Source: Eledone cirrhosa
Taxonomy: Eukaryota
DNA: 64,000 nucleotides
Direction: 5' to 3'
NCBI GenBank assembly: GCA_964016885.1
Contig: OZ024759.1
Location: 6,758,001-6,822,000 of the forward strand
Shown here: piece by piece, positions 1 through 50,379 of the stretch
How positions within the stretch are numbered: the stretch's first letter is position 1
How the letters are laid out: every line of letters begins with the position of its first letter
Made by a program: the position numbers and the translations under genes
The notes under the pieces: model-generated
The model's database searches: none
What the model was told of the DNA's origin: nothing
What the model saw: the letters and a program-made list of their open reading frames with translations, nothing else

Positions 1-11
1 TGATCGCAGAT

Positions 12-848
12 TTGGTACGAGTGATGAAGAATGTGTCCAGCATGTGCGACCCAACAGAAATGGAAGGACACATCCAACACTTCATCAACCGCATGCAGTT
101 CTCTGGCTACAACCAAAGAGACAGAGTCAGAGTATACGAAGGAGCCATGGAAAAGTATAAGACCCTCATAGAACTGGACATGAAAGGAATTTGCCCACTA
201 TACAGGAGCAAATCATGGAATAGCTTAGATAGGGCTAGACATAAGATAGGGAAGGCCACATCATGGTACGACAACCAGAGATATCAGAGTGTCATGTTTG
301 TGGACGCCACCCCTGGAGGGAAATTAGCTAACCAGTGTAGAAAGGCCCTGAGAAAGACCCACTTAAAAATAAAGGTGGTAGAAAAGCCAGGAACCACCAT
401 AAAATCCCTGATCAGCAAAACCTACCCTTTTAAGAAAACCCACTGTACCAATAGGAAATGTATCATATGTAAGGTGAACCCCCGGATAAACTGTAAAACT
501 AGAAACGTAGTCTATAGCATAAGATGTACAGAGGGTACTTGCAGAAACACGACAACAACATACATAGGTGAGACAGCTCGTAGCATAGGTGAAAGGATAG
601 ACCAACACTGGGGGGAACTAAAAGGACGAAAAAACGGGTCAGTACTATACGAACATGCTAGACAACATCATGACGGTAACATAGACAACATAGAAATTAG
701 AATAATATCTAAACATAGGAATGACCCAGCAGATAGGCAAATCAGAGAGGCCAGTGAAATAGAAATTAGAAGACCAAAGCTAAACAGAAAGAATGAGTGG
801 AACAACAACAACACCCAAACAAACAACACTGACCTAAGAGAAGTATAA
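12..848 (+). CDS. Penelope-like retroelement (family P1) ORF, C-terminal part: RT thumb, Cys-rich linker, GIY-YIG endonuclease; 5' part lies outside the window
   Basis: Motifs MQFSGY, FVDATPGG, C-x4-C-x2-C linker, NVVYSIRC...TYIGETARSIGERIDQH, RQIREA..I...PKLN, which match the GIY-YIG endonuclease of PLEs. Confidence 0.9.
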   Translation: MVRVMKNVSSMCDPTEMEGHIQHFINRMQFSGYNQRDRVRVYEGAMEKYKTLIELDMKGICPLYRSKSWNSLDRARHKIGKATSWYDNQRYQSVMFVDATPGGKLANQCRKALRKTHLKIKVVEKPGTTIKSLISKTYPFKKTHCTNRKCIICKVNPRINCKTRNVVYSIRCTEGTCRNTTTTYIGETARSIGERIDQHWGELKGRKNGSVLYEHARQHHDGNIDNIEIRIISKHRNDPADRQIREASEIEIRRPKLNRKNEWNNNNTQTNNTDLREV

Positions 849-1365
849 ATAAATAAGTAAATTAAATTAAATAAAATAAGATAAATAAATACATACACAA
901 GCACATAAACACACACTAGTCACCCAGCAGACACAACACTATACACACTAGTCACACATCACACATAACACTATACACACACGCAAACGCATGCGCAAAG
1001 AATAAAATAAGATAAACAAACAAGCAAATAAATAAATAAATAAATATATAGACAGACTGAACAAAAAAAATGGCGTAGACATACAACACAACAGGAGGAA
1101 CAATGAATATAACACCACTGACGATGTTGCAGATGTGCAACGAAAGATTTATGTAAACTATATATATATGTGTTTGTCTATATTGTATCTGTATTATTTT
1201 TGACCGCCGGTCAGTCAATGGCAACATTGAGGACCGAGTAAGTTAGATCGCAGATATATATATATAAAAGACAGCGAGAAGCGAAAACCAACCAAACAGT
1301 GAGTGTGTTCTGTTATTAATTCTGGCAATATTACGCAAATATGACCCTCCCCAAATATAACAATA
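849..1365 (+). mobile_element. 3' pseudo-LTR/UTR of PLE P1, ending in (TA)n
   Basis: Near-identical sequence at 31100-31589, 29484-30030 (inverted), 11243-11915 and 7067-7285. Confidence 0.85.
1114..1154 (+). ncRNA. Minimal type I hammerhead ribozyme in the P1 pLTR
   Basis: CTGACGA-T-GTTGCA-gatg-TGCAAC-GAAA; stems I and III are very short and imperfect in this copy. Confidence 0.7.
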
Positions 1366-1879
<514 letters not shown>

Positions 1880-6419: not shown

Positions 6420-7066
6420 TTAGATATTAGCTGTATACTTTATGGAATGTTCTGTGGAATTTATGTGGAATTTATGCAAGCAGAGAGAAAACAAGTCAGT
6501 GCGTCTATTTATTATAGAATCTAAATTAGATATAATGGTAAATTTTTCACATAAACAGAGATTGCATGTCTTGGATAGAGAACTGTTCAAGTATAAAGAA
6601 GCAGAACAAACCTTTTTCCAAGAGATGTTATAGTTAATATTTTTGTCTTTCAAGGACCATATGAGTTCTGAGAGTGCCGTGTTGGTTCTTTAAAAGTTGG
6701 TATTTAAAAGACGAATGGTGATTATAAAGACGAGCTTTAAAGGAGGTGGAAGTGGAGCCATAATAGGAAAAGGAATTGGTGTCAGTTATAACTTTACATT
6801 CGTAGATTAAGTTTTTTTCAAGACAATGGTTGTTGAGAGGACATTTATTTTTAACAGGGCAATTGCAATTGCGATTAGAGAGATTAACAGAGTTATTAAC
6901 AAGTGACCTAGTGTTATCTATAGAAGGGATTGGATTGGAGAAGTTATTTACGATAGGAATAATAGTTTCTTGATTTAGAATGGGATTAAGAACATTTAGC
7001 GAAGTTGCGTTTGACATTGTATTTGGGTTTTCAGAAATTAGCCTAGAGTTTACAATGACGTCAACG
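6420..7066 (-). pseudogene. Frameshifted GIY-YIG endonuclease of PLE P2
   Basis: CNCPVKNKCPLNNHCLEKNLIYECKV...YYGSTSTSFKARLYNH, then after a frameshift near 6660 WKKV...CNLCLCEKFTI...INRRTDL..C.HK. Confidence 0.85.
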
Positions 7067-7277
7067 TGCAACGAAAGAACTTTGATAGACTATATATATG
7101 TGTTTGTGTCTATATTGTATCTGTATTTTTGACCGTTGGTCAGTCAATGGCAACATTGAGGACCGAATAAATTAGATTACCGATATAAAAGACACAGAAG
7201 CGAAAACCAACCAAACAGTGAGTGTGTTCTGTTATAAATTCTGGCAATATTACACAAATATGACCCTCCCCAAGTAT

Positions 7278-7285
<8 letters not shown>
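7067..7285 (+). mobile_element. Truncated P1 pLTR starting inside hammerhead stem II
   Basis: GTGCAACGAAAGAACTTTG...CCCAAGTATAACAAT matches 31380-31589. Confidence 0.85.
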
Positions 7286-9377: not shown

Positions 9378-9496
9378 CAATATATAAACAGTTTTATAAA
9401 TAATTTTGACGTACCATAATATAAGCAACCATTAAATTATTTCGTTTCTGAATTTGTTTAGCAAGATTCTTTATCTGAAAACGTGTGTTGAAACCG

Positions 9497-10080
<584 letters not shown>

Positions 10081-10899: not shown

Positions 10900-11107
10900 T
10901 AGGAAAATGTTCAAGGCCCCGACGGCAGAGCTCAAGCCGTTTCGACGGCTATTTCTGGACCTGAAATAGGTTCAGAAATAGCTGTCGAAACGGCTTGAGC
11001 TCTGCCGTTGGGGAATTGAACATTTTCCTATTACCCACTCTGCTACCCAAAGTATTGAGTACTCTGGTGCGTTATGGTCCACCTGGTTCCTTACCACACT
11101 TCCTTCG

Positions 11108-11163: not shown

Positions 11164-11242
11164 ATGGAAGGAAAACAGAAAGGAAAAGGGAAGAAAAGGG
11201 AAAACAGCGGCAAAAACAACAAACCGACCAATGTGCGAGCAA

Positions 11243-11538
11243 CTTGGGGAGGGTCATATTGTTGTAATAATATTGCCAGAAATAATAACTGAACACACTC
11301 ACTGTTTGGTTGGTTTTCGCTTCTGTATCTTTTATATCTCCACAGTTAATTCATTTGGTCCTTAATGTTTATCATTGACTGACCAACGGTTAAAAATACA
11401 GATATAAATATATATATATAGTCTAACAAAGTTCTTTCGTTGCACATCTGTAACATCATCAGTGATACTATTATCACGAACACACACACCAAACATTATA
11501 CACACACGCAAACGCATGCGCAGAGACGGAGACGAAAA

Positions 11539-11585
<47 letters not shown>

Positions 11586-11915
11586 AATAAAAATGTCGTG
11601 AACATTACAATATAACACAATAGGAAGGAACATGATAATAGTACCACTGATGATGTTGCAGATGTGCAACGAAAGAACTTTGTTAGACTATATATATGTG
11701 TTTATATCTGTATTTTTGACCGTTGGTCAGTCAATGATAAACATTGAGGACCAAATGAGTTAACTGTGGAGATATAAAAGGTACAGAAGCGAAAACCAAC
11801 CAAACAGTGAGTGTGTTCTGTTATTATTTCTGGCAATATTATTACAACAATATGACCCTCCCCAAGTATAACAATATTTGTTTCGACACACGATTTCATA
11901 TCAAAACCCTTGCAA
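11243..11915. mobile_element. Non-coding fold-back derivative of the P1 pLTR with two hammerheads (11425-11466 on -, 11643-11684 on +)
   Basis: Inverted arms at about 11243-11470 and 11640-11867; both read CTGATGA-T-GTT(G/A)CA-gatg-TGCAAC-GAAAGAACTTTG. Confidence 0.85.
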
Positions 11916-11938
11916 AACAAAAATATATATATACATAT

Positions 11939-12431: not shown

Positions 12432-12620
12432 TAACGAAGGAAATGTGGTAAGGAACCAGGTGGACCATAACGCACCAAAGTACTCAATACTTGGGGTAGT
12501 AGAGTGGGTAATAGGAACCAGTAAGACCCCGACGGCTGAGCTCAAGCCGTTTCGACGGCTAATTCTGAATTAGCCGTCGAAACGGCTTGAGCTCAGCCGT
12601 CGGGGTCTTACTGGTTCCTA
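12432..12620 (-). mobile_element. Fold-back element of family H
   Basis: Near-perfect palindrome 12511-12620; GAAA-CGGCT-tgagctc-AGCCG-TC-GGGG on both strands. Confidence 0.8.
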
Positions 12621-12734: not shown

Positions 12735-12800
12735 TGTTTTATTATATATATTTCGAAGGTACTGCGCTGTTTTTTCAGTACGTCCTCGTCAGATAAAATA
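12735..12800 (-). ncRNA. Minimal type I hammerhead ribozyme in a (TA)n-flanked element (about 12677-12955)
   Basis: Minus strand: TATTTTAT-CTGACGA-GGAcGTACTG...CAGTACcTTC-GAAA-TATATA-TA-ATAAAACA; related copy at 32755-33475. Confidence 0.85.
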
Positions 12801-23022: not shown

Positions 23023-24615
23023 TTCCTTGAATCTCAGTCATTGATGTTGGTTAACTGGAAAGTCCGTTGGATTGAATATCAAGCCACTACCTGCAGCCTC
23101 AGATATTCAGGACGTATCGGAGGGTTCTTGCTGTTCCAAGCAAGCATGCCTTTTGAAGCGTTCCAAAAAGCGTGAAGGGGCCGATTTTCTTTAACCATCC
23201 CTGGAAACTTTTGGAGATAGTCCCCAGTGCGCCTATGACAATCGGGATCACTTTGACTTCATGGCAGTTCCAAATCCTTTTCACCTCCCACTTTAGGTCC
23301 TGATATCGGTTAATTTTCTCCCTCTCCTTCTCTTGCACTCTCGTGTCGAACGGGCAGGCCACATCCACAATCAGACACGATCTTTTTTCTTTGTCCACAA
23401 CCACCAGGTCAGGTCTATTGTGTTCCAGTTTTTTGTCCGTCTGTATCCTAAAATCCCACAGCACCTTCACCTGATTGTTCTCCATCACCGCCTCTGGCCT
23501 ATGCTCATACCATTTCTCAGAATGTGGTAAATTGTTTACTTTGCACAGGTGCCAGTGGATCACCCTGCCCATCACATCGTGTCTCCAGCCCTTATAGTGG
23601 GTCTGGGCTAGGTGTTTACACTCGGACACAATGTGAGCCACAGTCTCCTCTCTCTCTCCACAGATCCTGCACAGTGGGCTAGCCTCCTCCTTGTAAATAT
23701 GGTGCTTCAACCACTTCGTTTTGAGGGCCTGCTCCTGCGCAGCCATTAGCATTCCTTCTGTAGCCTTTTTGAGGTCTCCTCTTCTCAACCAGTTCCATGT
23801 CTGTGGATCTCTAAATTCAGTTTTCTCAAAGAAGGTATTATGAAGGGATTTTCCCTTAAGGCTGCTCTTCCTCCTTGATGTTATTTCCTCCTTGGACATC
23901 CCCTGGCCTACTGTCCCCTCCTTCAGTACAGTTCTGAGCATTGGCTCCTTACTATAGGTCACGTATTTGTATAGGTTGTTTTTCTCCATCTGAACACAGT
24001 CCTCTATGCTGATAAGACCTCTTCCACCCTCAAATCTCCTTAGGTAGAGTCTATCGACATCACTCCTCTTGTGGAACATGTTGTAGATAGTCAATAGCTT
24101 CCTAGTCTTCCTATCCATTTCTTTTTGTTCAGCAACATTCCATCTCAGAATTCCCGCACTGTACCTAATAATAGACACAGCTCGGGAATTTACTGCGCTT
24201 ATGGCATTTCTGCTGTTCAGATGTGACTTCAATACGCTCCTTACTCTCCGAATGTATTCAGTTCTTAACAATTCCTTCATTTTTTTGTTCTTTATGCCAT
24301 CAGCCTCCAGAACGCCCAAATACTTGTATCCTTCCCCAGAGTCAATTTCCTTTATCATCTCACCTGTTGGTATCTGGATCCCGTTACTTCTGCTCAACCT
24401 ACCCCTTCTCATCACAATGACTCCACATTTACTAATACCAAACTGCATTATGCTGCGAAAAGTGAGAGCAGGATACAAGTTGGGAAAGGGAGAGCTTACC
24501 ATCAATCACCTCCTCTTCATGGACGATCTTAAGCTCTTCGGGAAAAGTTAGAAGGAGTTGGATGTGCTTGTTGACACTGTCCGTATTTTCAGCAGTGATA
24601 TATGTATGCAGTTTG

Positions 24616-29483: not shown

Positions 29484-31589
29484 GTTTTGCGAGGTTTTTT
29501 ATATGAAATCGTGTGTCGAAACAAATATTGTTATACTTGGGGAAGGGTCATATTTGTGTAATAATATTGCCAGAATTAATAACAGAGGACACTCACTGTT
29601 TGGTTGGTTTTCGCTTCTGTGTCTTTTATATCGGTTAATTTAATTTATTCGGTCCTCAATGTTTATCATTGACTGACCAACGGTCAAAAATACAGATACA
29701 ATATAGACACAAACACATATATATAGTCTATCAAAGTTCTTTCGTTGCACATCTGCAACATCGTCAGTGGTGCTATTATGTTTCCTCCCGTTGTATTGTA
29801 TGCCTACGCCATCTTTATTTAGTCTGTTTATTTATTTGTTTATTTTTTGTCTTCTCTGCGCATGCGTTTTCGTGTGTGTATAGTGTTTTGTTTGATGTGT
29901 GTTCGTGTTTGGCTGACTGTGTATTGGTTATTGTATTCTATCTTAGTTTACTAGTGTGTGTTTATATGTGGTTCTTGTTATTGTGCTTGTGTGTGTATTT
30001 ATTTATTTATTTATACTTCTCTTACTTCTTGTAAGAACAAGAGAGTACTAACAAGTTTGATTTAGAACGTAGCACAATGGAAAGCATCCAGCAGATAGCT
30101 AATTCCATACACCAGAGTATAACTGTAGCTATCGACTACCCTTCCAAACACCCTAACAATAGATTACCTGTATTAGACACGGAACTCTGGATTAACACTA
30201 TAGACGAGAGACCCCAAATTCTCCACTCACACTATGCTAAACCCATGGCCTCCAAATACCTGATACTCAAAAACTCAGCAATGTGTGATGAAGAACGTGT
30301 CCCGCATGTGCGACCCAACAGAAATGGAAAGACACATCCAACACTTCATCAACCGCATGCAGTTCTCTGGCTACAACCAAAGAGATAGAATCAGAGAATA
30401 CAAAGGAGCCACGGAGAAGTATAAGACCCTCATAGAACTGGACATGAAAGGAATTTGCCCATTATATAGGAGCAAATCATGGAATAGCTTAGATAGGACT
30501 AAACATAAGATAGAGAAAGCCACCTCATGGTACGACAACCAGAGATACCAGAGTGTCATGTTTGTGGACGCTACCCCTGGAGGGAAATTAGCTAACCAGT
30601 GTAGAAAGACTCCGAGAAATACCCACTTAAAGATTAAGGTGGTAGAAAAGCCAAAAACCACCATAAAATCCCTGATCAGCAAAACCTACCTTTTTAAGAA
30701 AACCCACTGTACTAATAGGAAATGTATTATATGTAAAGTAAACCACCGGATAAACTGTAAAACTAGAAACGTAGTCTATAGCATAAGATGTACAGAGGGT
30801 ACTTGCAGAAACATGACAACAACATACATAGGCGAGACAGCTCGTAGCATAGGTGAAAGGATAGACCAACACTGGGGGGAACTAAAAGGAGGAAAAAACG
30901 ATTCAGTACTATACAAACTTGCCAGACAACAACATGACGGTAACATAGACAACATAGAAATTAGAATAATATCTAAACATAGAAATGACCCAGCAGATAG
31001 GCAAATCAGAGAGCCAGCGAAATAGAACTCAGAAGGCCAAGGCTAAACAGAAAAAATGAATGGAATAACAACAACACCCAAACAAACAACACTGACCTAA
31101 GGCAAGTATAAATAAATAAATAAATACATACACAAGCACAATAACAACAAACACATATAAACACACACTAGTAAACTAAGATAGAATACAATAACCAATA
31201 CACAGTCACCAAAACACAAACACACATCAAACAAAACACTATACACACACGCAAACGCATGCGCAGAGAAGACAAAAAATAAACAAATAAATAAATAAAT
31301 AAACAGACTAAATAAAGATGGCGTAGGCATACAATACAACGGGAGGAAACATAATAGCACCACTGACGGTGTTGCAGATGTGCAACGAAAGAACTTTGTT
31401 AGACTATATATATGTGTTTGTGTCTATATTGTATCTGTATTTTTGACCGTTGGTCAGTCAATGGTAACATTGAGGACCGAATAAATTAAATTAACTGATA
31501 TAAAAGACACAGAAGCGAAAACCAACCAAACAGTGAGTGTGTTCTGTTATTAATTCTGGCAATATTATTACACAAATATGACCCTTCCC
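29484..31589 (+). mobile_element. PLE family P1 copy, 5'-truncated, with inverted 5' pLTR (29484-30030) and 3' pLTR (31100-31589)
   Basis: Arms are reverse complements; hammerheads at 29730-29771 (-, intact CTGACGA) and 31359-31400 (+, CTGACGG); flanked by TA-rich microsatellites. Confidence 0.92.
30032..31110 (+). pseudogene. Frameshifted P1 RT C-terminus plus GIY-YIG
   Basis: NSIHQSITV..D...LPVLDTELW...HYAKPM, frameshift near 30285, then a near-copy of ORF 12-848 with a second frameshift near 31015. Confidence 0.88.
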
Positions 31590-32759: not shown

Positions 32760-33475
32760 TTCAAAATATTAACAAATGAAAAATATTCTCATTATCAAAA
32801 TATATTTTATTATATACTAGCAGCAGGACTCGGCGTTGCACGGGGTAGGAAACGTGAAATAGCAACACGCATATGCAAAGATTGAGGAATGTAGCTGTGA
32901 ACTTTTTGAATTCCCTTATTCTCAGGGAATGATTGTTCATCTACTGGAAACGTAGAACAATAACAGGCCGAATCCAATAGTAGCAGTGTCAGTGGGCTGA
33001 TTGCGGAAATCATGTATGCGAAAAGAGTAAGCGTTGTGGGGTAATGTATGTCGTAAGTCTGTTCACGAATTACGTCACGAATGGGAAACACACGTCAGTC
33101 TGAAGGAGCGACGTAGTCAATTGTTTTTTTCAGTACGTCCTCATCAGACAAAATATATGATTTGATATATGACATACCGCTAAGGTCTTGATTATACAAT
33201 TGACTGCCAATACTGGAATTGTATAATCAAGACCGTAGCGGTATGTCATATATCAAACCATATATTTTGTTTGATGAGGACGTACTGAAAAACAACACAG
33301 TACCTTTGAAATATATATAATAAAGTATATATTTTGATAATGAGAATATTTTTCATTTTATTTTGAATAATATTAAAAACTCTAGGAAAACCTTTTTTTG
33401 CTGTTGAGTGCTTCTAATTTATTGTAAAATTATATTCATTCAGTAATCAACGAAACATACTAATCTTTGGTTATA
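32755..33475. mobile_element. Fold-back element of the 12735 hammerhead family; left arm disrupted by a Helitron-like insert
   Basis: Palindrome centre near 33210; + hammerhead at 33263-33327 with core TTGATGA; the - arm keeps CTGATGA (33141-33147) but has lost GAAA. Confidence 0.75.
32817..33118 (-). mobile_element. Helitron-like 3' end fragment
   Basis: Minus strand ends CCCGTGCAACGCCGAGTCCTGCTGCTAG|T. Confidence 0.55.
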
Positions 33476-35501: not shown

Positions 35502-35664
35502 TTTAAATCGAGACAGGCAAACTGTATTAATCTAATTAGTATTTTTCAATCTAGCTAACTTGGTCATTTACAATACAAACAATTATATGATTGTATTAGT
35601 GTTTATCATATATATTAATTTATATTAACTTGTATATATATATAGTCTTGAAATTTATTATTAT

Positions 35665-35721
<57 letters not shown>

Positions 35722-35724
<3 letters not shown>

Positions 35725-35916
35725 CGAAGTAAATGTGGTAAGGAACCAGGTGGACCATAACGCACCAAAGTACTCAATACTTGGGGTAGTAGAGTGGGTA
35801 ATAGGAACCAGTAAGACCCCGACGGCTGAGCTCAAGCCGTTTCGACGGCTAATTCTGGACTCCAGAATTAGCCGTCGAAACGGCTTGAGCTCAGCCGTCG
35901 GGGTCTTACTGGTTCC

Positions 35917-35920
<4 letters not shown>
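35722..35920 (-). mobile_element. Fold-back element of family H
   Basis: Near-identical to 12432-12620 with a slightly longer centre. Confidence 0.8.
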
Positions 35921-35979
<59 letters not shown>

Positions 35980-36139
35980 AAAAGAAATAAGAATTCGCTC
36001 CAAGCATAGCTTTATACAATATGTATAGAAATTTCGTATTTCTAAAGAAACACGGTTTTAGGAAGCCGTAGGTATGTAAACACCGGGGGGGGGGGGGGCT
36101 ATCGCCCTCTGGTGATGTCCAGCAGAAGCAAGGGGAACA

Positions 36140-38935: not shown

Positions 38936-41019
38936 TTCTTCTGGTTTTATAATTTCACAAAGTTTTACCAATAGAGAGAGAGAGTCGGTTTCTAACATAG
39001 ACACAAGACTCTCTCATTGGAATTTACACAACATCAACTAGGTAGGTATGTATGTATGTATGTATGTATGTATGTGTGTATGTGTGTACATAGTATGTAT
39101 GTATGTATGTATGAATTTATGTATCTGTGTATGTGTGTACATAGTATGTATGTTCTTCTAGTTTTATAATTTCACAAATTTTTGCCAATAGAGAGAGAGT
39201 CGGTTTCTAACATAGACACAAGACTCTCTCATTGGAATTTACACAACATCAACTAGGTAGGTATGTATGTGTCTGTATGTGTATGCATGGATGTTATTGT
39301 ATGTGTGGATGTGGATGTTTTGAGTTGTATGTGTGCATGTGTATATGCTTTGTATCTGTACATGTGTATATGCAGTTATTAGATGCAAAATTTTTGGAAT
39401 GTTTTACATATTTTTACTGTTCCATTAATGGATTGTACTTGTAATTTCCTAACTAGTTGTGTTCTTTCTGTTTCTGTGAAGCCTAGCTTCTCAAGATTTG
39501 TATTGAGGCAGTTACTAACATATCCCAGTGCCCCAATAATCACAGGTATAAATCTGAAGGTATAGTCAGGGTGGAGTATCTGTAGATTTCTCATCAGTTC
39601 TGCCTAAATTTTCTCCTTTTCGATAATCTTTGATATTATATTGGCATCTGCTGGGCAGCTAACTTCCACTACTGTGCATGCCTTCTTCTCCCTGTCCCAT
39701 ATCATAATATCTGGTCTGTTATGCCTGCATTTTATTGGGTTTTTACTGGAACATTCCACCAGTACTCTTTCATATTATGTACATGGATGTCTTCCACATT
39801 GCTGTAGCTTTTCATGTGTTTATTATGGAGTTATCTTTTTTACGAACTGAATTATACAGTGTTTTGGCCACTACATCATGCTTCATAGGTAGATAGTACC
39901 GCGATGACATCTTTGGACAGCTGCTGATGACATGGGTGATATCTTCAATGTTAGTTCTGCAGAGTCTGCACTTGTTATCACATCTAAGTGTTTTGCCTGC
40001 ATCCCTTTCTCTTTTGTGAATCAGGTATTTCGTGTTAATCTCCTGTTCTTGGATTGCAAAAACGTATCCTTCAAAGTGGGAGCCAATATAGCGGTTGTTG
40101 GTTCAAGATAGACTACTTTATTTATCTATATTACTCTCACTCTGGAGCTTCCTGGCAACATATCCAGGCATGATTTTTTGCTGATAAGCATGCAGTTTTT
40201 CATCCATGGATTCACTGCGATACTGCTGAGCGACTTCCCTGGGTGTGAGTTTTTGATTATCCCACAGGGAATATCTCTCGAGGAGTTCCTTCCCAACTCT
40301 CATGATCTTATCTGTTTCATGCAGATAGACTTGCTCGAGAAACGGGCTTCTACGCTTCGAGGTTCGTTGATTTTGTTGGAGAGATATGATGCGACATTCA
40401 AATGTTGTCTGGACTGATGTTAAGCCTCTGCCTCCCTGCTTACGTTTCAAGTAAAGGCGGTCTATGTCACTGTTGATGTGGAAGTTTCCGGTGTTGTTTA
40501 GTATTTTTCGAGTTCCAACATCAACTTCTCGGATTTCGTTTATCGTCCAATTGAGTATTCCAAACGTTGGTGTTAGGACAGACACAGCAAACACATTGTG
40601 AGCCACTGTTTTGTTTTGCGCAGAGAGTTCCGATGACCAGATCTTTCTTAATCGGGTGTAGTATTCCCTGGTTACGCGTTCTTTATTACACATACCATTA
40701 TAGGATATGTTCTCATCTATCCCCAGGTATCTGTAGCAGTCCTCGTCCGATATCGGTGAAACAGTTTGACCATTGATGATAATGTTGCTAGATTGGGTTG
40801 TTGTTTTTCCCCGCTTTACAGTCATATATGAGCATTTATCTTGGCCAAACTCCATTCCTATATCCTTTGAGAACGTTGTAACCAGGTCAAGAACTTTCTT
40901 CATCCCATCCATGTTCTTGGCATAGAGTTTCAGATCATCCTCAAAGAAATTATGGGTTAGGTTCGTATTTCTGTCCTCCTGTGAGCCAATGATGTATCCT
41001 TCACATTTCTTGAGCAGAA
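38936..41019 (-). mobile_element. R4-like RLE LINE family B, 5'-truncated and decayed, flanked by (TATG)n; terminal 110 bp tandemly duplicated
   Basis: THNFFEDDLKLY, YRYLGIDE, GGRGL, CRLC...HVISSC, RPDIM, FIPVIIGALG; 38936-39045 is repeated at 39153-39262. Confidence 0.85.
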
Positions 41020-41464
41020 ATGTATGTATGTTATGTATGTTATGTATGTATGTATGTATGTATGTATGTATGTTATGTATGTATGTATGTATGTATGTAT
41101 GTATGTATGTATGTTATGTATGTATGTATGTATGTATGTATGTATGTTATGTATGTATGTATGTATGTATGTATGTATGTATGTATGTATGTATGTATGT
41201 TATGTATGTATGTATGTATGTATGTATGTATGTTATGTATGTATGTATGTATGTATGTATGTATGTATGTATGTTATGTATGTATGTATGTATGTATGTT
41301 ATGTATGTATGTATGTATGTATGTATGTATGTATGTATGTATGTATGTATGTGTGTATGTATGTATGTATGTATGTATGTATGTGTGTATGTATGTTATG
41401 TATGTATGTATGTATGTATGTATGTATGTATGTATGTATGTATGTGTGTATGTATGTATGTATG
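41020..41464. repeat. (TATG)n microsatellite
   Basis: Direct reading. Confidence 0.97.
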
Positions 41465-42345: not shown

Positions 42346-45230
42346 TTTTCTCTTTCTCTTAATTTCGAGTATATTTTTTTGACCGGCCATCTTCCTGGTG
42401 GCAAGGTTGTAAAAGAAAAGAAATTGTCATCCCTTGAATCGCAAGAATGTTTTGCAAATTTTGAAGGTGCCAGCTATCGCAGCCATTTGTAGACTATGAA
42501 TTAGGGAGCTGCGCTTTTTGTCCGCAAATCCAAGTTCAGTCATACTTTGGTCCAAGCGGGTTGGTATATAACCCGTAGCACCAATAATGATGGGTATGAA
42601 GCTAAAGGTGTATCTTGGATACTGGATTTGTAAACTCCTCATCAATGGTCCGTAGATGTCCTCCTTCTCCTGTATTTTTCTGACAACGTTTACATCAAGT
42701 GGGCAGCTGATCTCCACAACAGAACACGTTTCCAATGTGTGGTCCCAAACTACAATATCAGGCCGGTTGTGCTTTAATTTGGTGGCAGTTTTTATTTTCA
42801 GGTTCCACCAGTATTCCTTAGTGCCATCTGTCTCAATATATTCTTCCTCGTTTGTTGTTAATTTTGTTTTCCGAAGTGCGTTCCAGATGGTTCTAGCTAT
42901 CCCATCGTGTCTCATGGGGAGGTAGTAGCGAGATGACATTCTTTCGCAGCTGGCAACAATGTGGCTTACGTCCTCGATCTTTGTTTTACATAGCCTACAT
43001 TTATTGTCAGCTGCTGGCCCTCCTCTTTTGTGCAGCAGATATTTGGTAGGGAGTTCTTGTTCCTGTATTGCATAGAGATATCCCTCAAGGTGTGATGTCA
43101 TAAACTTGTCGGAACTCCATGCTAGGCTTTTTGAGTGGTTTATCCCCTCTATGGTCTGTGTTTTACGCCTCAAGTATCCATGCACAACTTTTTCTGTAAA
43201 TTGGTCAATTTTTTTATCTTGTTTGAACATTGAATAGGATCTTCCGATTTCTCTGGGTGAGAGATTTATATCAGGCTTTATTCCATATCTCTCCTCCAGA
43301 TCAGTCGCTATTTTAATGATATTTCTTTTTTCATGGTCATAAACCTGGGCAAGATGGTTGCCAACCTTTTTCCTCTGTTGAAGGTGTTGCTTCAGTGTTA
43401 CTATCCGGGTCTCATATGTTGTTAATATTGATTTTAGACCCCGGCCACCTTCCTTGCGTGAGAAGTATAGCCTATCCACAAAGTTCCCAGTAACACTGAG
43501 AAGTTTTCGAGTTCTAACATCCATCTCACTTAGTTCTTGCAATGACCAGTTCAGTAGGCCAAATGTTGGCGTTAGAATTGGCACAGTATAAGTATTGTGG
43601 GCAATGTATTTGTTGTATGCTGACAGTTCTGATGACCATATTTTCTTTACTCTTCTGAGGTATTCAGTTCTGGTTCTCTCCTTATTTATGGGTCCATCAT
43701 ATCTGACATTCTCATCCTGTCCAAGATATCTGTAGTTGTCACCTGACTGCAGAGGTTGTATTGTCAGGCCGTTCATCTCTAGATTTCTAGAGGAGGGCAC
43801 AGCTCTTCCACGTTTTACTGCCAAATATGCACACTTGGACTCACCAAATTTCATTTTGATGTCGGTTGAAAATTGTGTAATGAGGTTCAATTGTTTCTTG
43901 ATGTCATTGATATTTGGCCCATACAACTTCAGGTCATCAACAAAGAAAAGATGGGAGATACTTCTGGGCCCACTTCTTTGTCCACCTTGTTTCCTGAGTA
44001 GGTAAGATAGTGGATTCAGTGAGAGAACGAAGAGTAGCACTGACAAGCTATCACCCTGAAAGATGCCCTTCTGGTAATGTATCTTATCAGTCTTAACCTG
44101 CTCCTTCTCACCTCTAAGGATCAAACTGGTGTACCAGTTCTTGGTCAGGCGTTCAACAGCAGCTACCAATGGTTGTGGGACTTTAGCTAACTGTAAAGCC
44201 TTAACAATCCACCCATGAGGTACACTATCAAATGCTTTTTGATAGTCCAGCCACACGACAGTCATGTTTCTGCGATTCTTTGTTGTTTTTTCCTGAATCA
44301 TTTTGTTAGTTAGAAGGTGATCTATGCAACCCCACACCTCCCTCTTTCCACCAGCTTGCTCAGGTGTTATGATGTTGTTGGTATATATAATTTATACATG
44401 ATGTTTTGGCAGGCAATTGGGCGGTAATTTTTAGCAAGGGTGGTTTGGCTATTTTGGGGAATGAGGAGAGTAGAGGCAGTTGATAACCATCTGGGCAGTT
44501 CTTGTGTGCCCTTAATGGTTTCTGTAAACAGCCGTATGAGATCTTGCCGATAGAAAGTGAAATTCTTCAACCAGTATCCTGTAATGAGGTCTGGGCCTGG
44601 CGATTTCCTATTCGACATTTTCTGTAGAGCTGTTTCCAGTATTGACCCATCTATGTCATATTGTTTTGTCTGGACATGTTGGCAGTAGTCTTGTTCCAGT
44701 TCTTTTAGCCAATTAGCTTGTCTGTTGAATCCGTCATCCGTTTCCCATACAGATCTCCAGTAGCTCTCAACCTGTTCTTTTGAAGGGGTGTCATTTACAG
44801 AGATTGAGCTTTTGCCACCGAAGCTGCGATAAACTGATTTAGGATCTCTGGTAAACAATCTATTTAGCACTTGTCGTTTATGTGCTGTTGACTTATATTT
44901 TAGTCTTTCTGTTGTAGCTGTGAGTTGTTGTTTCAACTGGTGTAATTTGGAGTTCAAAGTTTTAAATTTTGTATCTCCAAATCGTCTCTCTAACTTTTTC
45001 TTTAGGTCTTCCTGGTGTCGTGTGAAGTTGCTCTCTATGTTGCATTTCATAACGACTGCGATGTGTGAGATACAACATTTTGTATCAGGGACAAAATTTT
45101 GGATTTTAAATTTCGCATCCACGCTGGTTCAGGCTTTCTGTTTGTATCTTGATTGCGTGGTTTTAGATGTGTGTTATATGATAGCAATGTGACAGCTGAA
45201 ACATATAACAAAACATTAAGCGTTTCTTTT
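42346..45230 (-). mobile_element. R4-like RLE LINE family A, about 2.9 kb, flanked by (ATGT)n
   Basis: SPGPDLI..YWLK, NYRPIAC, WLDYQKAFDSVPH, GIFQGDSLS, HLFFVDDLKLY, CRLC..HIVASC, RHD, RPDIVV..EISCP. Confidence 0.95.
42427..44337 (-). CDS. Reverse transcriptase, CCHC and restriction-like endonuclease (open 636-aa segment; frameshift to upstream segment 44367-45122)
   Basis: RT and RLE motifs listed for the element. Confidence 0.85.
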   Translation of the reverse strand: MWGCIDHLLTNKMIQEKTTKNRRNMTVVWLDYQKAFDSVPHGWIVKALQLAKVPQPLVAAVERLTKNWYTSLILRGEKEQVKTDKIHYQKGIFQGDSLSVLLFVLSLNPLSYLLRKQGGQRSGPRSISHLFFVDDLKLYGPNINDIKKQLNLITQFSTDIKMKFGESKCAYLAVKRGRAVPSSRNLEMNGLTIQPLQSGDNYRYLGQDENVRYDGPINKERTRTEYLRRVKKIWSSELSAYNKYIAHNTYTVPILTPTFGLLNWSLQELSEMDVRTRKLLSVTGNFVDRLYFSRKEGGRGLKSILTTYETRIVTLKQHLQQRKKVGNHLAQVYDHEKRNIIKIATDLEERYGIKPDINLSPREIGRSYSMFKQDKKIDQFTEKVVHGYLRRKTQTIEGINHSKSLAWSSDKFMTSHLEGYLYAIQEQELPTKYLLHKRGGPAADNKCRLCKTKIEDVSHIVASCERMSSRYYLPMRHDGIARTIWNALRKTKLTTNEEEYIETDGTKEYWWNLKIKTATKLKHNRPDIVVWDHTLETCSVVEISCPLDVNVVRKIQEKEDIYGPLMRSLQIQYPRYTFSFIPIIIGATGYIPTRLDQSMTELGFADKKRSSLIHSLQMAAIAGTFKICKTFLRFKG

Positions 45231-50212: not shown

Positions 50213-50379
50213 ATATGTATATGTATGTATATATATAGAGAGAGGGTCATATTTGTGTAATATTGCCAGAATTAATAAAAAACCTCGCAAAACTAATTCA
50301 TCGCCGCTATCTAGATATATATATATATATATATACATATATACATATAATATTTATTATATATATATATATATAGGAG

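What the first reader, a model, noticed from the sequence alone, without database searches (positions are those of the whole stretch)
29484..31589. Coding PLE with inverted pLTRs links the fold-back elements to an autonomous parent
Seen: the RT-GIY-YIG fragment is flanked by inverted pLTRs, each with a hammerhead. The same pLTR appears with an ORF at 1-1365 and as an ORF-less hairpin at 11243-11915. This gives a continuum from coding element to pure fold-back within one window. Established: inverted 5' pLTRs occur in Penelope. The arms end at about two recurring positions, with or without a roughly 45-bp extension (TTGTTTCGACACACGATTTCAT...GCAAAAC).
Basis: partly seen in the sequence, partly recalled or inferred. 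Interest (0 to 1): 0.7.

Follow-up and report, generated by a model that had tools for sequence, protein, structure and literature searches.

The report
Twice-primed Penelope insertions, unusual reverse transcriptase
This is a dead, shortened copy of a recently spreading Penelope-like jumping gene whose back-to-back insertions nearly always have one long and one short end, likely because each insertion is copied twice from two neighbouring start points, and whose copying enzyme carries an extra conserved segment that may mark an unnamed branch of these elements.

Summary
The anatomy is real, but the element at 29484-31589 is not the autonomous parent. It is a decayed, 5'-truncated Penelope-like element (PLE) with no RT catalytic core and two frameshifting deletions. 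The parent is a 4,117-bp unit with a 1,210-aa RT-GIY-YIG ORF; 138 of 138 scored genomic hits match its last 281 aa exactly. The '45-bp extension' is the known PLE tail, the start of the ORF. ORF-less hairpins are the short end of a truncation series, not a family of their own. Inverted pLTRs, a one-sided tail and opposed hammerheads are published. Two results go further. (1) 59 of 59 complete young inverted pairs have one short and one tailed end. The arms share a template, yet in 29 of 59 neither can be a copy of the other, which points to two separate primings; this scan noted the end pattern before elsewhere in this genome. (2) The RT spans about 128 residues between motifs A and B' (about 60 in canonical C-terminal-endonuclease PLEs), as do 213 of 213 measured sequences. 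This may be an unnamed PLE lineage; I could not place it against named references.

The parts
29484..30024 (-). Inverted arm: whole 3' UTR/pLTR plus the first ~68 nt of the ORF (tailed end), abutting (TA)n
29484..29525 (-).
29729..29772 (-). Minimal type I hammerhead-like motif of the left arm; core intact, 6-bp stem II, 2-bp stem III, weak stem I
30029..31111 (+). 5'-truncated ORF remnant (RT thumb, C-X4-C-X2-C-X7-C linker, GIY-YIG endonuclease), 94.2% identical to the intact ORF; starts after YVDD; 44-nt deletion near 30284, 1-nt deletion near 31012
31098..31589 (+). Direct arm: 3' UTR/pLTR ending at ORF +12 (short class, eroded), abutting (TA)n
31358..31401 (+). Hammerhead-like motif of the right arm, core base A9 changed to G
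1..1366 (+). 3' part of a nearly full-length copy of the young subfamily (begins at ORF +48, upstream of the window; short end +26). Its tailed inverted partner (+79) lies upstream of the window in L021
11242..11918 (.). ORF-less fold-back of a third subfamily: short arm 11242-11474 (-), tailed arm 11475-11918 (+)
7066..7285 (+). Solo short arm starting inside hammerhead stem II, ending at +26
50243..50310 (.). Minimal ~68-bp fold-back: inverted short-arm stub plus tail stub (about +50 to +84)
9439..9955 (.). ORF-less fold-back of a sister PLE family (~72% DNA identity in the ORF): tailed arm (-) to +84, short arm (+) to +26

Best explanation
The stretch is a dead, 5'-truncated, head-to-head insertion of an endonuclease-bearing Penelope-like retrotransposon in a (TA)n tract, likely made when both cut ends of the target primed reverse transcription on RNA from one source locus, one at a start site near +26 and the other at +69 to +84 of the ORF. 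Shown: the family, the intact parent ORF, the target, the two end classes, one of each per pair, shared arm variants and variable inner breakpoints. Inferred: the GIY-YIG domain cuts both strands of (TA)n; each 3'-OH anneals through 2-4 nt of UA/AU and is extended for its own distance; the two cDNA ends are then joined, mostly at short microhomologies. Long extension gives an ORF-bearing pair, short extension an ORF-less hairpin, one productive priming a solo arm. I favour one RNA molecule primed twice over two RNA copies on an asymmetric dimer, but did not separate these.
For: Parent: 138 of 138 scored hits are 100% identical over the last 281 aa, 25 in open frames of 1,210 aa or more; unit 4,117 bp; best fold matches are telomerase RTs. 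Ends: 59 of 59 complete pairs among 104 mapped loci have one end at +19..+32 (52 at +26) and one at +69..+85. Older subfamilies: 29 of 31 pairs among 89 loci. Sister family: 11 of 11 pairs among 30 loci. 116 of 118 young ends abut TA-rich DNA. In 29 of 59 pairs the tail-less arm reaches more than 50 nt further 5' than the tailed arm, so neither arm contains the other. One source: 0.52 substitutions/kb within pairs against 2.14 between insertions, 30 of 49 pairs with none; both arms of L108 carry the same internal rearrangement junction. 8 of 59 pairs stop within 50 nt of each other inside (permutation mean 1.5; 0 of 10,000 reach 8). Junctions: 37 of 56 overlap, 8 blunt, 11 with inserts. In vitro, a lizard PLE cuts and extends both strands and starts at two adjacent sites inside the ORF start (PMC11167929).
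Against: Exceptions among older copies: L209 (tail/tail), L222 (short/short), and L065 (tail/tail, missed by the script). Arm identity could also come from gene conversion or from assembly polishing of palindromes; not tested. The tandem-unit test of which unit the partner arm copies was informative in 2 of 8 pairs and split. The young sample is the best-scoring hits on contigs C1-C3, 20 of them hand-picked pairs, tandems or the window's neighbour; the sister-family query demanded a tailed arm. PMC11167929 saw no difference in start site between top and bottom strands, and no homology between start site and cut DNA, whereas ends here overlap the TA target by 2-4 nt.
Confidence: 0.68

Rival explanations
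1. Fold-back or self-priming: one cDNA (or an antisense RNA, as proposed in PMC3846280) snaps back and is copied, so the second arm is a copy of the first, trimmed later to +26.
For: Arms are nearly identical; 8 of 59 pairs are near-perfect palindromes; most junctions have microhomology.
Against: In 29 of 59 pairs each arm holds sequence that the other lacks; some tailed arms are only 15-18 nt of tail (L114, L125, L139).
Confidence: 0.1
2. Two RNA copies from one active source locus, held by an asymmetric protein dimer, each primed at a different site.
For: Explains independent arm lengths and shared variants. The lizard PLE protein is predicted to be a dimer (PMC11167929).
Against: Needs an extra rule for strict one-of-each ends; does not by itself explain the excess of equal inner ends (8 of 59 against 1.5). 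It shares the two-priming core with my best reading.
Confidence: 0.3
3. The ORF-less hairpins are a separate non-autonomous family (SINE- or retrozyme-like, or a MITE) that spreads as a unit.
For: ORF-less fold-backs are frequent, and animal retrozymes are proposed PLE derivatives (bioRxiv 10.64898/2026.07.22.740005).
Against: The 12 hairpin junctions printed all differ. ORF-less and ORF-linked arms are intermixed within each older subfamily in a 78-row pLTR tree with weak inner support. The only repeated hairpin seen (L064/L067, 230 kb apart) shares its flanks and so looks like a local duplication.
Confidence: 0.07
4. Two independent insertions into one (TA)n tract, or inversion after insertion.
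For: (TA)n tracts collect many PLE copies, and adjacent separate copies occur (L222, L135, L156). This may explain the three exceptions.
Against: Arms share private variants and abut with no TA between them; one-of-each ends in 59 of 59.
Confidence: 0.03

Closest known systems
Endonuclease-bearing PLE insertions with an inverted 5'-truncated copy and one-sided tail (PMC8557442 Fig. 2 legend and text; PMC3846280, Adineta vaga Pen2a)
   Same: Partial tandems, inverted pLTR, tail made of the first codons of the ORF on one arm, TATA-like box in the pLTR, N-rich insert in the ORF (48% Asn at aa 245-415), (TA)n target.
   Different: The tail is 41-58 nt with sub-sites at +69, +71 and +84, not 30-40 nt. 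One-sidedness is described there as 'often' or 'optional'; here it is counted at 59 of 59.
Poseidon_Ac (PAc) of the green anole, internal RT initiation (PMC11167929)
   Same: Two adjacent start sites inside the ORF start bound the tail; both target strands are cut and extended; AT-rich target.
   Different: Here ends overlap the target by 2-4 nt of TA, and the hammerhead lies about 230 nt upstream of the ATG rather than across it. PAc is in the Penelope/Poseidon clade, which lacks the linker Zn-finger.
Nematis and Neptune PLE clades (PMC8557442 text, Figs S1 and S2)
   Same: C-terminal GIY-YIG with two Cys between GIY and YIG, upstream CX2-5CxxC linker; the C-X4-C-X2-C-X7-C spacing equals that printed for Nematis_C4 and Nematis_Cr.
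   Different: Motif A to B' span is 128 aa against about 60 in the printed Nematis, Neptune and Penelope rows (my hand count); Neptune linkers are much longer.
Naiad/Chlamys PLEs and telomerase RT (insertion in fingers, IFD)
   Same: Extra sequence between RT motifs A and B', at the IFD position; telomerase RTs are the top fold matches (Z 15.4, rmsd 3.9, 381 aligned for 7trd_A).
   Different: The endonuclease is C-terminal in 102 of 103 homologues where it was found. The insert is about 40 aa longer than in Naiads. Structural homology to the telomerase IFD is not shown.
Minimal hammerheads of metazoan PLEs (PMC4209133)
   Same: CUGANGA and GAAA core, extra base before G10.1, G10.1-C11.1 pair, 6-bp stem II, 2-bp stem III; opposed pairs 100-700 bp apart are described there.
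   Different: Stem I is 2-4 of 5 pairs in this family against 5 of 5 in the commonest sister-family form; activity is doubtful.

Membership tests
EN+ Penelope-like elements | Telomerase-related RT in a single ORF | tested here: met
   1,210-aa ORF; model mean pLDDT 90.9; telomerase RTs rank 1-4 by Foldseek and 1-15 by VIA-align. Pfam gave no hit on the parent and weak RVT_1 hits on 5 of 7 homologues.
EN+ Penelope-like elements | GIY-YIG endonuclease with two Cys between GIY and YIG and two His (CCHH) | tested here: met
   Seen in the sequence and in homologue rows; weak GIY-YIG Pfam hits on 3 of 7 homologues.
EN+ Penelope-like elements | pLTRs from partial tandems, inverted 5' copy, tail | tested here: met
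EN+ Penelope-like elements | Hammerhead motif in the pLTR | tested here: met
   Core conserved; 2 of 6 stem II pairs change on both sides between family and sister family (7 rows, in effect two lineages). No Rfam hit.
EN+ Penelope-like elements | Hammerhead self-cleavage; retained spliceosomal intron | not testable with these tools
   Needs RNA or an assay.
Neptune clade | Long CX2-5CxxC linker and no insertion between motifs A and B' | tested here: not met
   7 residues to the last Cys (84 of 160 matched linkers are 4/7) against about 25 in the printed Neptune rows; span 128 aa.
Nematis clade | Short CX2-5CxxC linker | tested here: met
Nematis clade | No insertion between motifs A and B' | tested here: not met
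   124-148 aa in 83 of 83 rows, 117-161 aa in 130 of 130 measurable among 220 further proteins; about 60 in the two printed Nematis rows (hand count).
Neptune or Nematis clade | RT phylogeny with named reference elements | not testable with these tools
   No named reference proteins were obtainable; the tree has only an in-genome Hydra-type outgroup and is a quick, unfinished search.
Naiad/Chlamys | N-terminal endonuclease; DKA in place of DKG | tested here: not met
   Endonuclease C-terminal; motif reads DKSG.
Hydra clade | CxCX5C linker, DKT, no CCHH | tested here: not met
   Absent here but present in another family of this genome, to which this RT shows no BLASTP match better than E 1.4.
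Telomerase/Naiad IFD | Fold of the insert matches a solved IFD | tested here: inconclusive
   Same position in the RT; the insert folded alone (mean pLDDT 90.4) gave no clear match to anything.
Non-autonomous fold-back family (retrozyme or MITE) | A fixed unit repeated at dispersed sites and forming its own clade | tested here: not met

The most novel reading that the evidence does not exclude
The parent belongs to a large, unnamed clade of C-terminal-endonuclease PLEs whose RT carries a conserved, telomerase-sized domain in the fingers. Its insertions record a rule that every inverted PLE is made from one RNA primed exactly twice, once at each of two fixed start sites, by the two ends of a double-strand cut in (TA)n.
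Probability: 0.3. Interest if true: 0.68.

Novelty: new variant of a known kind. Interest (0 to 1): 0.42.

Why it matters
How PLEs make their tandem and inverted structures is named as an open question in PMC8557442, and the one in vitro system (PMC11167929) shows two start sites without linking them to the two ends of an insertion. The one-of-each rule, the shared template and the independent arm lengths make that link and give a clear prediction; a family with many intact, identical ORFs offers material to test it. A C-terminal-endonuclease lineage with an IFD-sized insert would bear on whether the telomerase IFD was inherited from a PLE-like ancestor or gained several times. The focal copy itself is an ordinary fossil.

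Tried and rejected
Rfam: 0 hits at gathering score over the window and one unrelated hit at E 0.068 in the element. Pfam: no meaningful hit on the window ORFs (one unrelated match at E 0.052) and none on the parent. PDB sequence search: two RT hits at E 0.057 and 0.18 only. Expression: no RNA holder listed, so expression, splicing and hammerhead cleavage stay open. Twin conserved hairpins behind the two start sites (e1-9518699, e1-8673755): no duplicated motif here; only a weak fold after +26 (-0.5 to -2.3 kcal) and a hairpin near +85..+105 (-7 to -8 kcal) with one synonymous compensatory change between two lineages. One RNA against two: 6 of 8 tandem pairs uninformative, 2 split. Fold of the insert alone: no match at Z 5 or more among 48,161 chains and none at E 0.001 or better. 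No intact ORF among the 40 older-subfamily stretches fetched (longest frame 557 aa; the 686-aa frame in L214 may be the sister family's). Target-site duplications could not be read inside (TA)n. The protein atlas did not answer. Five lineage motifs were absent from the Craig 2021 supplement, but that file seems to hold only Naiad, Chlamys and Hydra families. Arkhipova 2006, which defined Neptune and Nematis, is not held, and Repbase could not be consulted.

Full report
Observation. The window lies in a 3.0-Gb animal genome; the nearest named homologue of the ORF is an Octopus vulgaris protein at 68%. The element has an inverted arm at 29484-30024, an ORF remnant at 30029-31111 and a direct arm at 31098-31589, between (TA)n tracts. 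The arms agree at 481 of 503 ungapped columns, far above shuffles (869 against at most 41 in 200). Related sequence lies at 1-1366, 7066-7285, 11242-11918 and 50243-50310. The remnant is 94.2% identical to the intact ORF but begins after the catalytic YVDD motif and has a 44-nt and a 1-nt deletion, so it is neither coding nor autonomous.

The parent. The protein at window 3-845 matched 138 of 138 scored places at 100% identity, all on three contigs, from 39,503 first-look candidates; 25 of the 138 sit in open frames of 1,210 aa or more. A natural tandem gave a 4,117-bp unit with a 1,210-aa ORF from the ATG, YVDD at residue 826, the linker at 1077, a hammerhead-like core at +3890 and a TATA-like box at +4040. 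The model of residues 430-1210 (mean pLDDT 90.9) matched telomerase RTs best. Window 1-1366 is the 3' end of a nearly full-length young copy whose inverted, tailed partner lies just upstream of the window (L021).

End points. I mapped 104 loci of the young subfamily: 20 hand-picked pairs, tandems and the window's neighbour, 80 further stretches around hits, and 4 complete short loci. Fifty-nine held an inverted pair with both outer ends visible. All 59 had one short end (+19 to +32; 52 at +26) and one tailed end (+69 to +85; 34 at +84, 15 at +69, 7 at +71). In the two older subfamilies, 89 loci (11 left out: 10 duplicates and the reference) gave 31 pairs: 29 one-of-each (one of these from the sister family), one tail/tail, one short/short; L065 is a further tail/tail case that the script missed. 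A sister family, about 72% identical in the ORF, gave 11 of 11 pairs among 30 loci at +25/26 and +84, though that query demanded a tailed arm. Contigs of public runs show TA-rich loose ends at +84 (40 contigs, run X1), at +26 and +66 in a second organism and at +79 in a third (one contig each); this is weak support, and X1 may be the assembly's own sample. 116 of 118 young ends abut TA-rich DNA, and each main end class overlaps the TA tract by 2-4 nt.

How the arms relate. Of the 59 pairs, 57 were projected and 49 had 150 nt or more of overlap. They differ by 0.52 substitutions/kb against a median of 2.14 between insertions; 30 have none, and in 47 the partner is closer than the median other arm. 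Both arms of L108 carry the same internal junction. The tail-less arm reaches over 50 nt further 5' in 29 pairs, the tailed arm in 22, and 8 stop within 50 nt of each other (permutation mean 1.5). In those 29 each arm has sequence that the other lacks, so neither was copied from the other. Junctions mostly overlap by a few bases (37 of 56). The simplest reading is two primings, one from each cut end of the target, at two start sites on RNA from one source. One RNA primed twice explains the strict one-of-each rule and the excess of equal inner ends; two RNAs on an asymmetric dimer remain possible, and my test between them failed. Gene conversion and assembly polishing were not excluded as sources of arm identity.

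The hairpins. The nearest relatives of the window's hairpin and of the focal arm include ORF-linked, solo and fold-back copies with scattered breakpoints; the 12 junctions printed all differ. A 78-row pLTR tree separates a young clade (99/100), the sister family (100/100) and the hairpin type from the rest (95/86), with ORF-less and ORF-linked arms intermixed in the two older groups; most inner branches are weak. So the hairpins are short products of the same reaction, and the window's three copies come from three subfamilies.

Hammerhead. Rfam found none. A minimal type I layout is present, with the extra base before stem II that PMC4209133 describes. Two of six stem II pairs change on both sides between family and sister family (7 rows, in effect two lineages). 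Stem I has 2 to 4 of 5 pairs in this family and 5 of 5 in the commonest sister form, and the focal right arm has A9 changed to G. No inner end falls at the predicted cleavage site. Activity is untested.

An unexpected feature. The linker spacing C-X4-C-X2-C-X7-C equals that printed for two Nematis elements. But the RT has 128 residues from the motif A aspartate to the motif B' glutamine. The span is 124-148 in 83 of 83 aligned rows and 117-161 in 130 of 130 measurable among 220 further proteins; 102 of 103 with a detected endonuclease have it C-terminal. All were found by likeness to this protein, so they show one lineage, not all PLEs. By my hand count of Fig. S1 of PMC8557442 the span is about 60 in Penelope, Nematis and Neptune rows, about 84 in a Naiad, and roughly 115-150 in telomerases. 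A Hydra-type PLE of the same genome has about 96 residues from motif A to motif C (hand count) against 173 here. PMC8557442 states that canonical C-terminal-endonuclease PLEs have no IFD. The insert has conserved residues and folds confidently, but a fold link to the telomerase IFD is not shown. The lineage is large: 425 clusters at E 1e-5 or better and 3,377 representatives at E 1e-30 or better, of which I examined only the listed best.

Literature seen. PMC11167929: parts 1-2 of 4. PMC8557442: passages, section 12, supplement parts 1 and 54 of 59 and two searches in it. PMC3846280: passages. PMC4209133: parts 1-2 of 4. bioRxiv 10.64898/2026.07.22.740005: part 1 of 5; its supplements are closed. 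Eight searches (listings only for other papers) showed no paper that counts a one-of-each rule or describes a C-terminal-endonuclease PLE with such an insert. Arkhipova 2006, Repbase and most subscription journals were out of reach, so absence from print is not established. Earlier notes of this scan report the one-short-one-long pattern in this genome and twin-priming ideas; I saw them.

Verdict. The finding as written is known PLE anatomy on a dead copy. What lifts it is the counted two-priming signature and the possibly unnamed lineage with an insert in the fingers. Novelty: new variant of a known kind. Interest 0.42; 0.68 if the novel case holds (probability about 0.3).

Noticed in passing
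window 6634-7089 (-): Endonuclease-region fragment of another PLE family with a CxCX5C linker; longer copies have DKT and YRDD, the Hydra-clade features of PMC8557442. The solo arm at 7066-7285 sits directly beside it.
   Followed up: partly
window 9439-9955; L214, L241-L270: Sister PLE family with the same +26/+84 ends and a better-formed hammerhead stem I; copies are 98-99% alike.
   Followed up: yes
L022:2573-6202, aa 245-415: Asparagine-rich insert (48% Asn) in the N-terminal part of the ORF, as described for rotifer PLEs (PMC3846280).
   Followed up: no
L022 about 2664-2678 (ORF +85..+105): Small hairpin just 3' of the +84 start site in both family and sister family, with one synonymous compensatory change.
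   Followed up: partly
L108:277-5603: Nested palindrome in which both arms carry the same internal inversion junction, so the template was likely a read-through transcript of an earlier inverted insertion.
   Followed up: partly
window 33122-33297 and 12743-12792: A different palindromic repeat with a hammerhead-like core beside (TA)n.
   Followed up: no
window 10918-11010, 12520-12620, 35600-36057: A further fold-back repeat family between TA tracts, unrelated in sequence to the arms studied.
   Followed up: no
window 23099-24505 (-), 40118-41113 (-), 42427-45128 (-): Long RT and endonuclease-like frames of another non-LTR element, resembling R4/Dong-type LINEs (label recalled, not tested).
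   Followed up: no
window 31430-31560 and homologues: Between hammerhead and ATG lie two short inverted repeats, a TATA-like box and a splice-donor-like GTGAGT; PLEs are known to keep an intron in this region. Seen by eye.
   Followed up: no
protein P0096: An Octopus vulgaris protein annotated as dynein regulatory complex subunit 6-like matches 19% of the query at 74% identity, possibly a PLE piece in a gene model.
   Followed up: no
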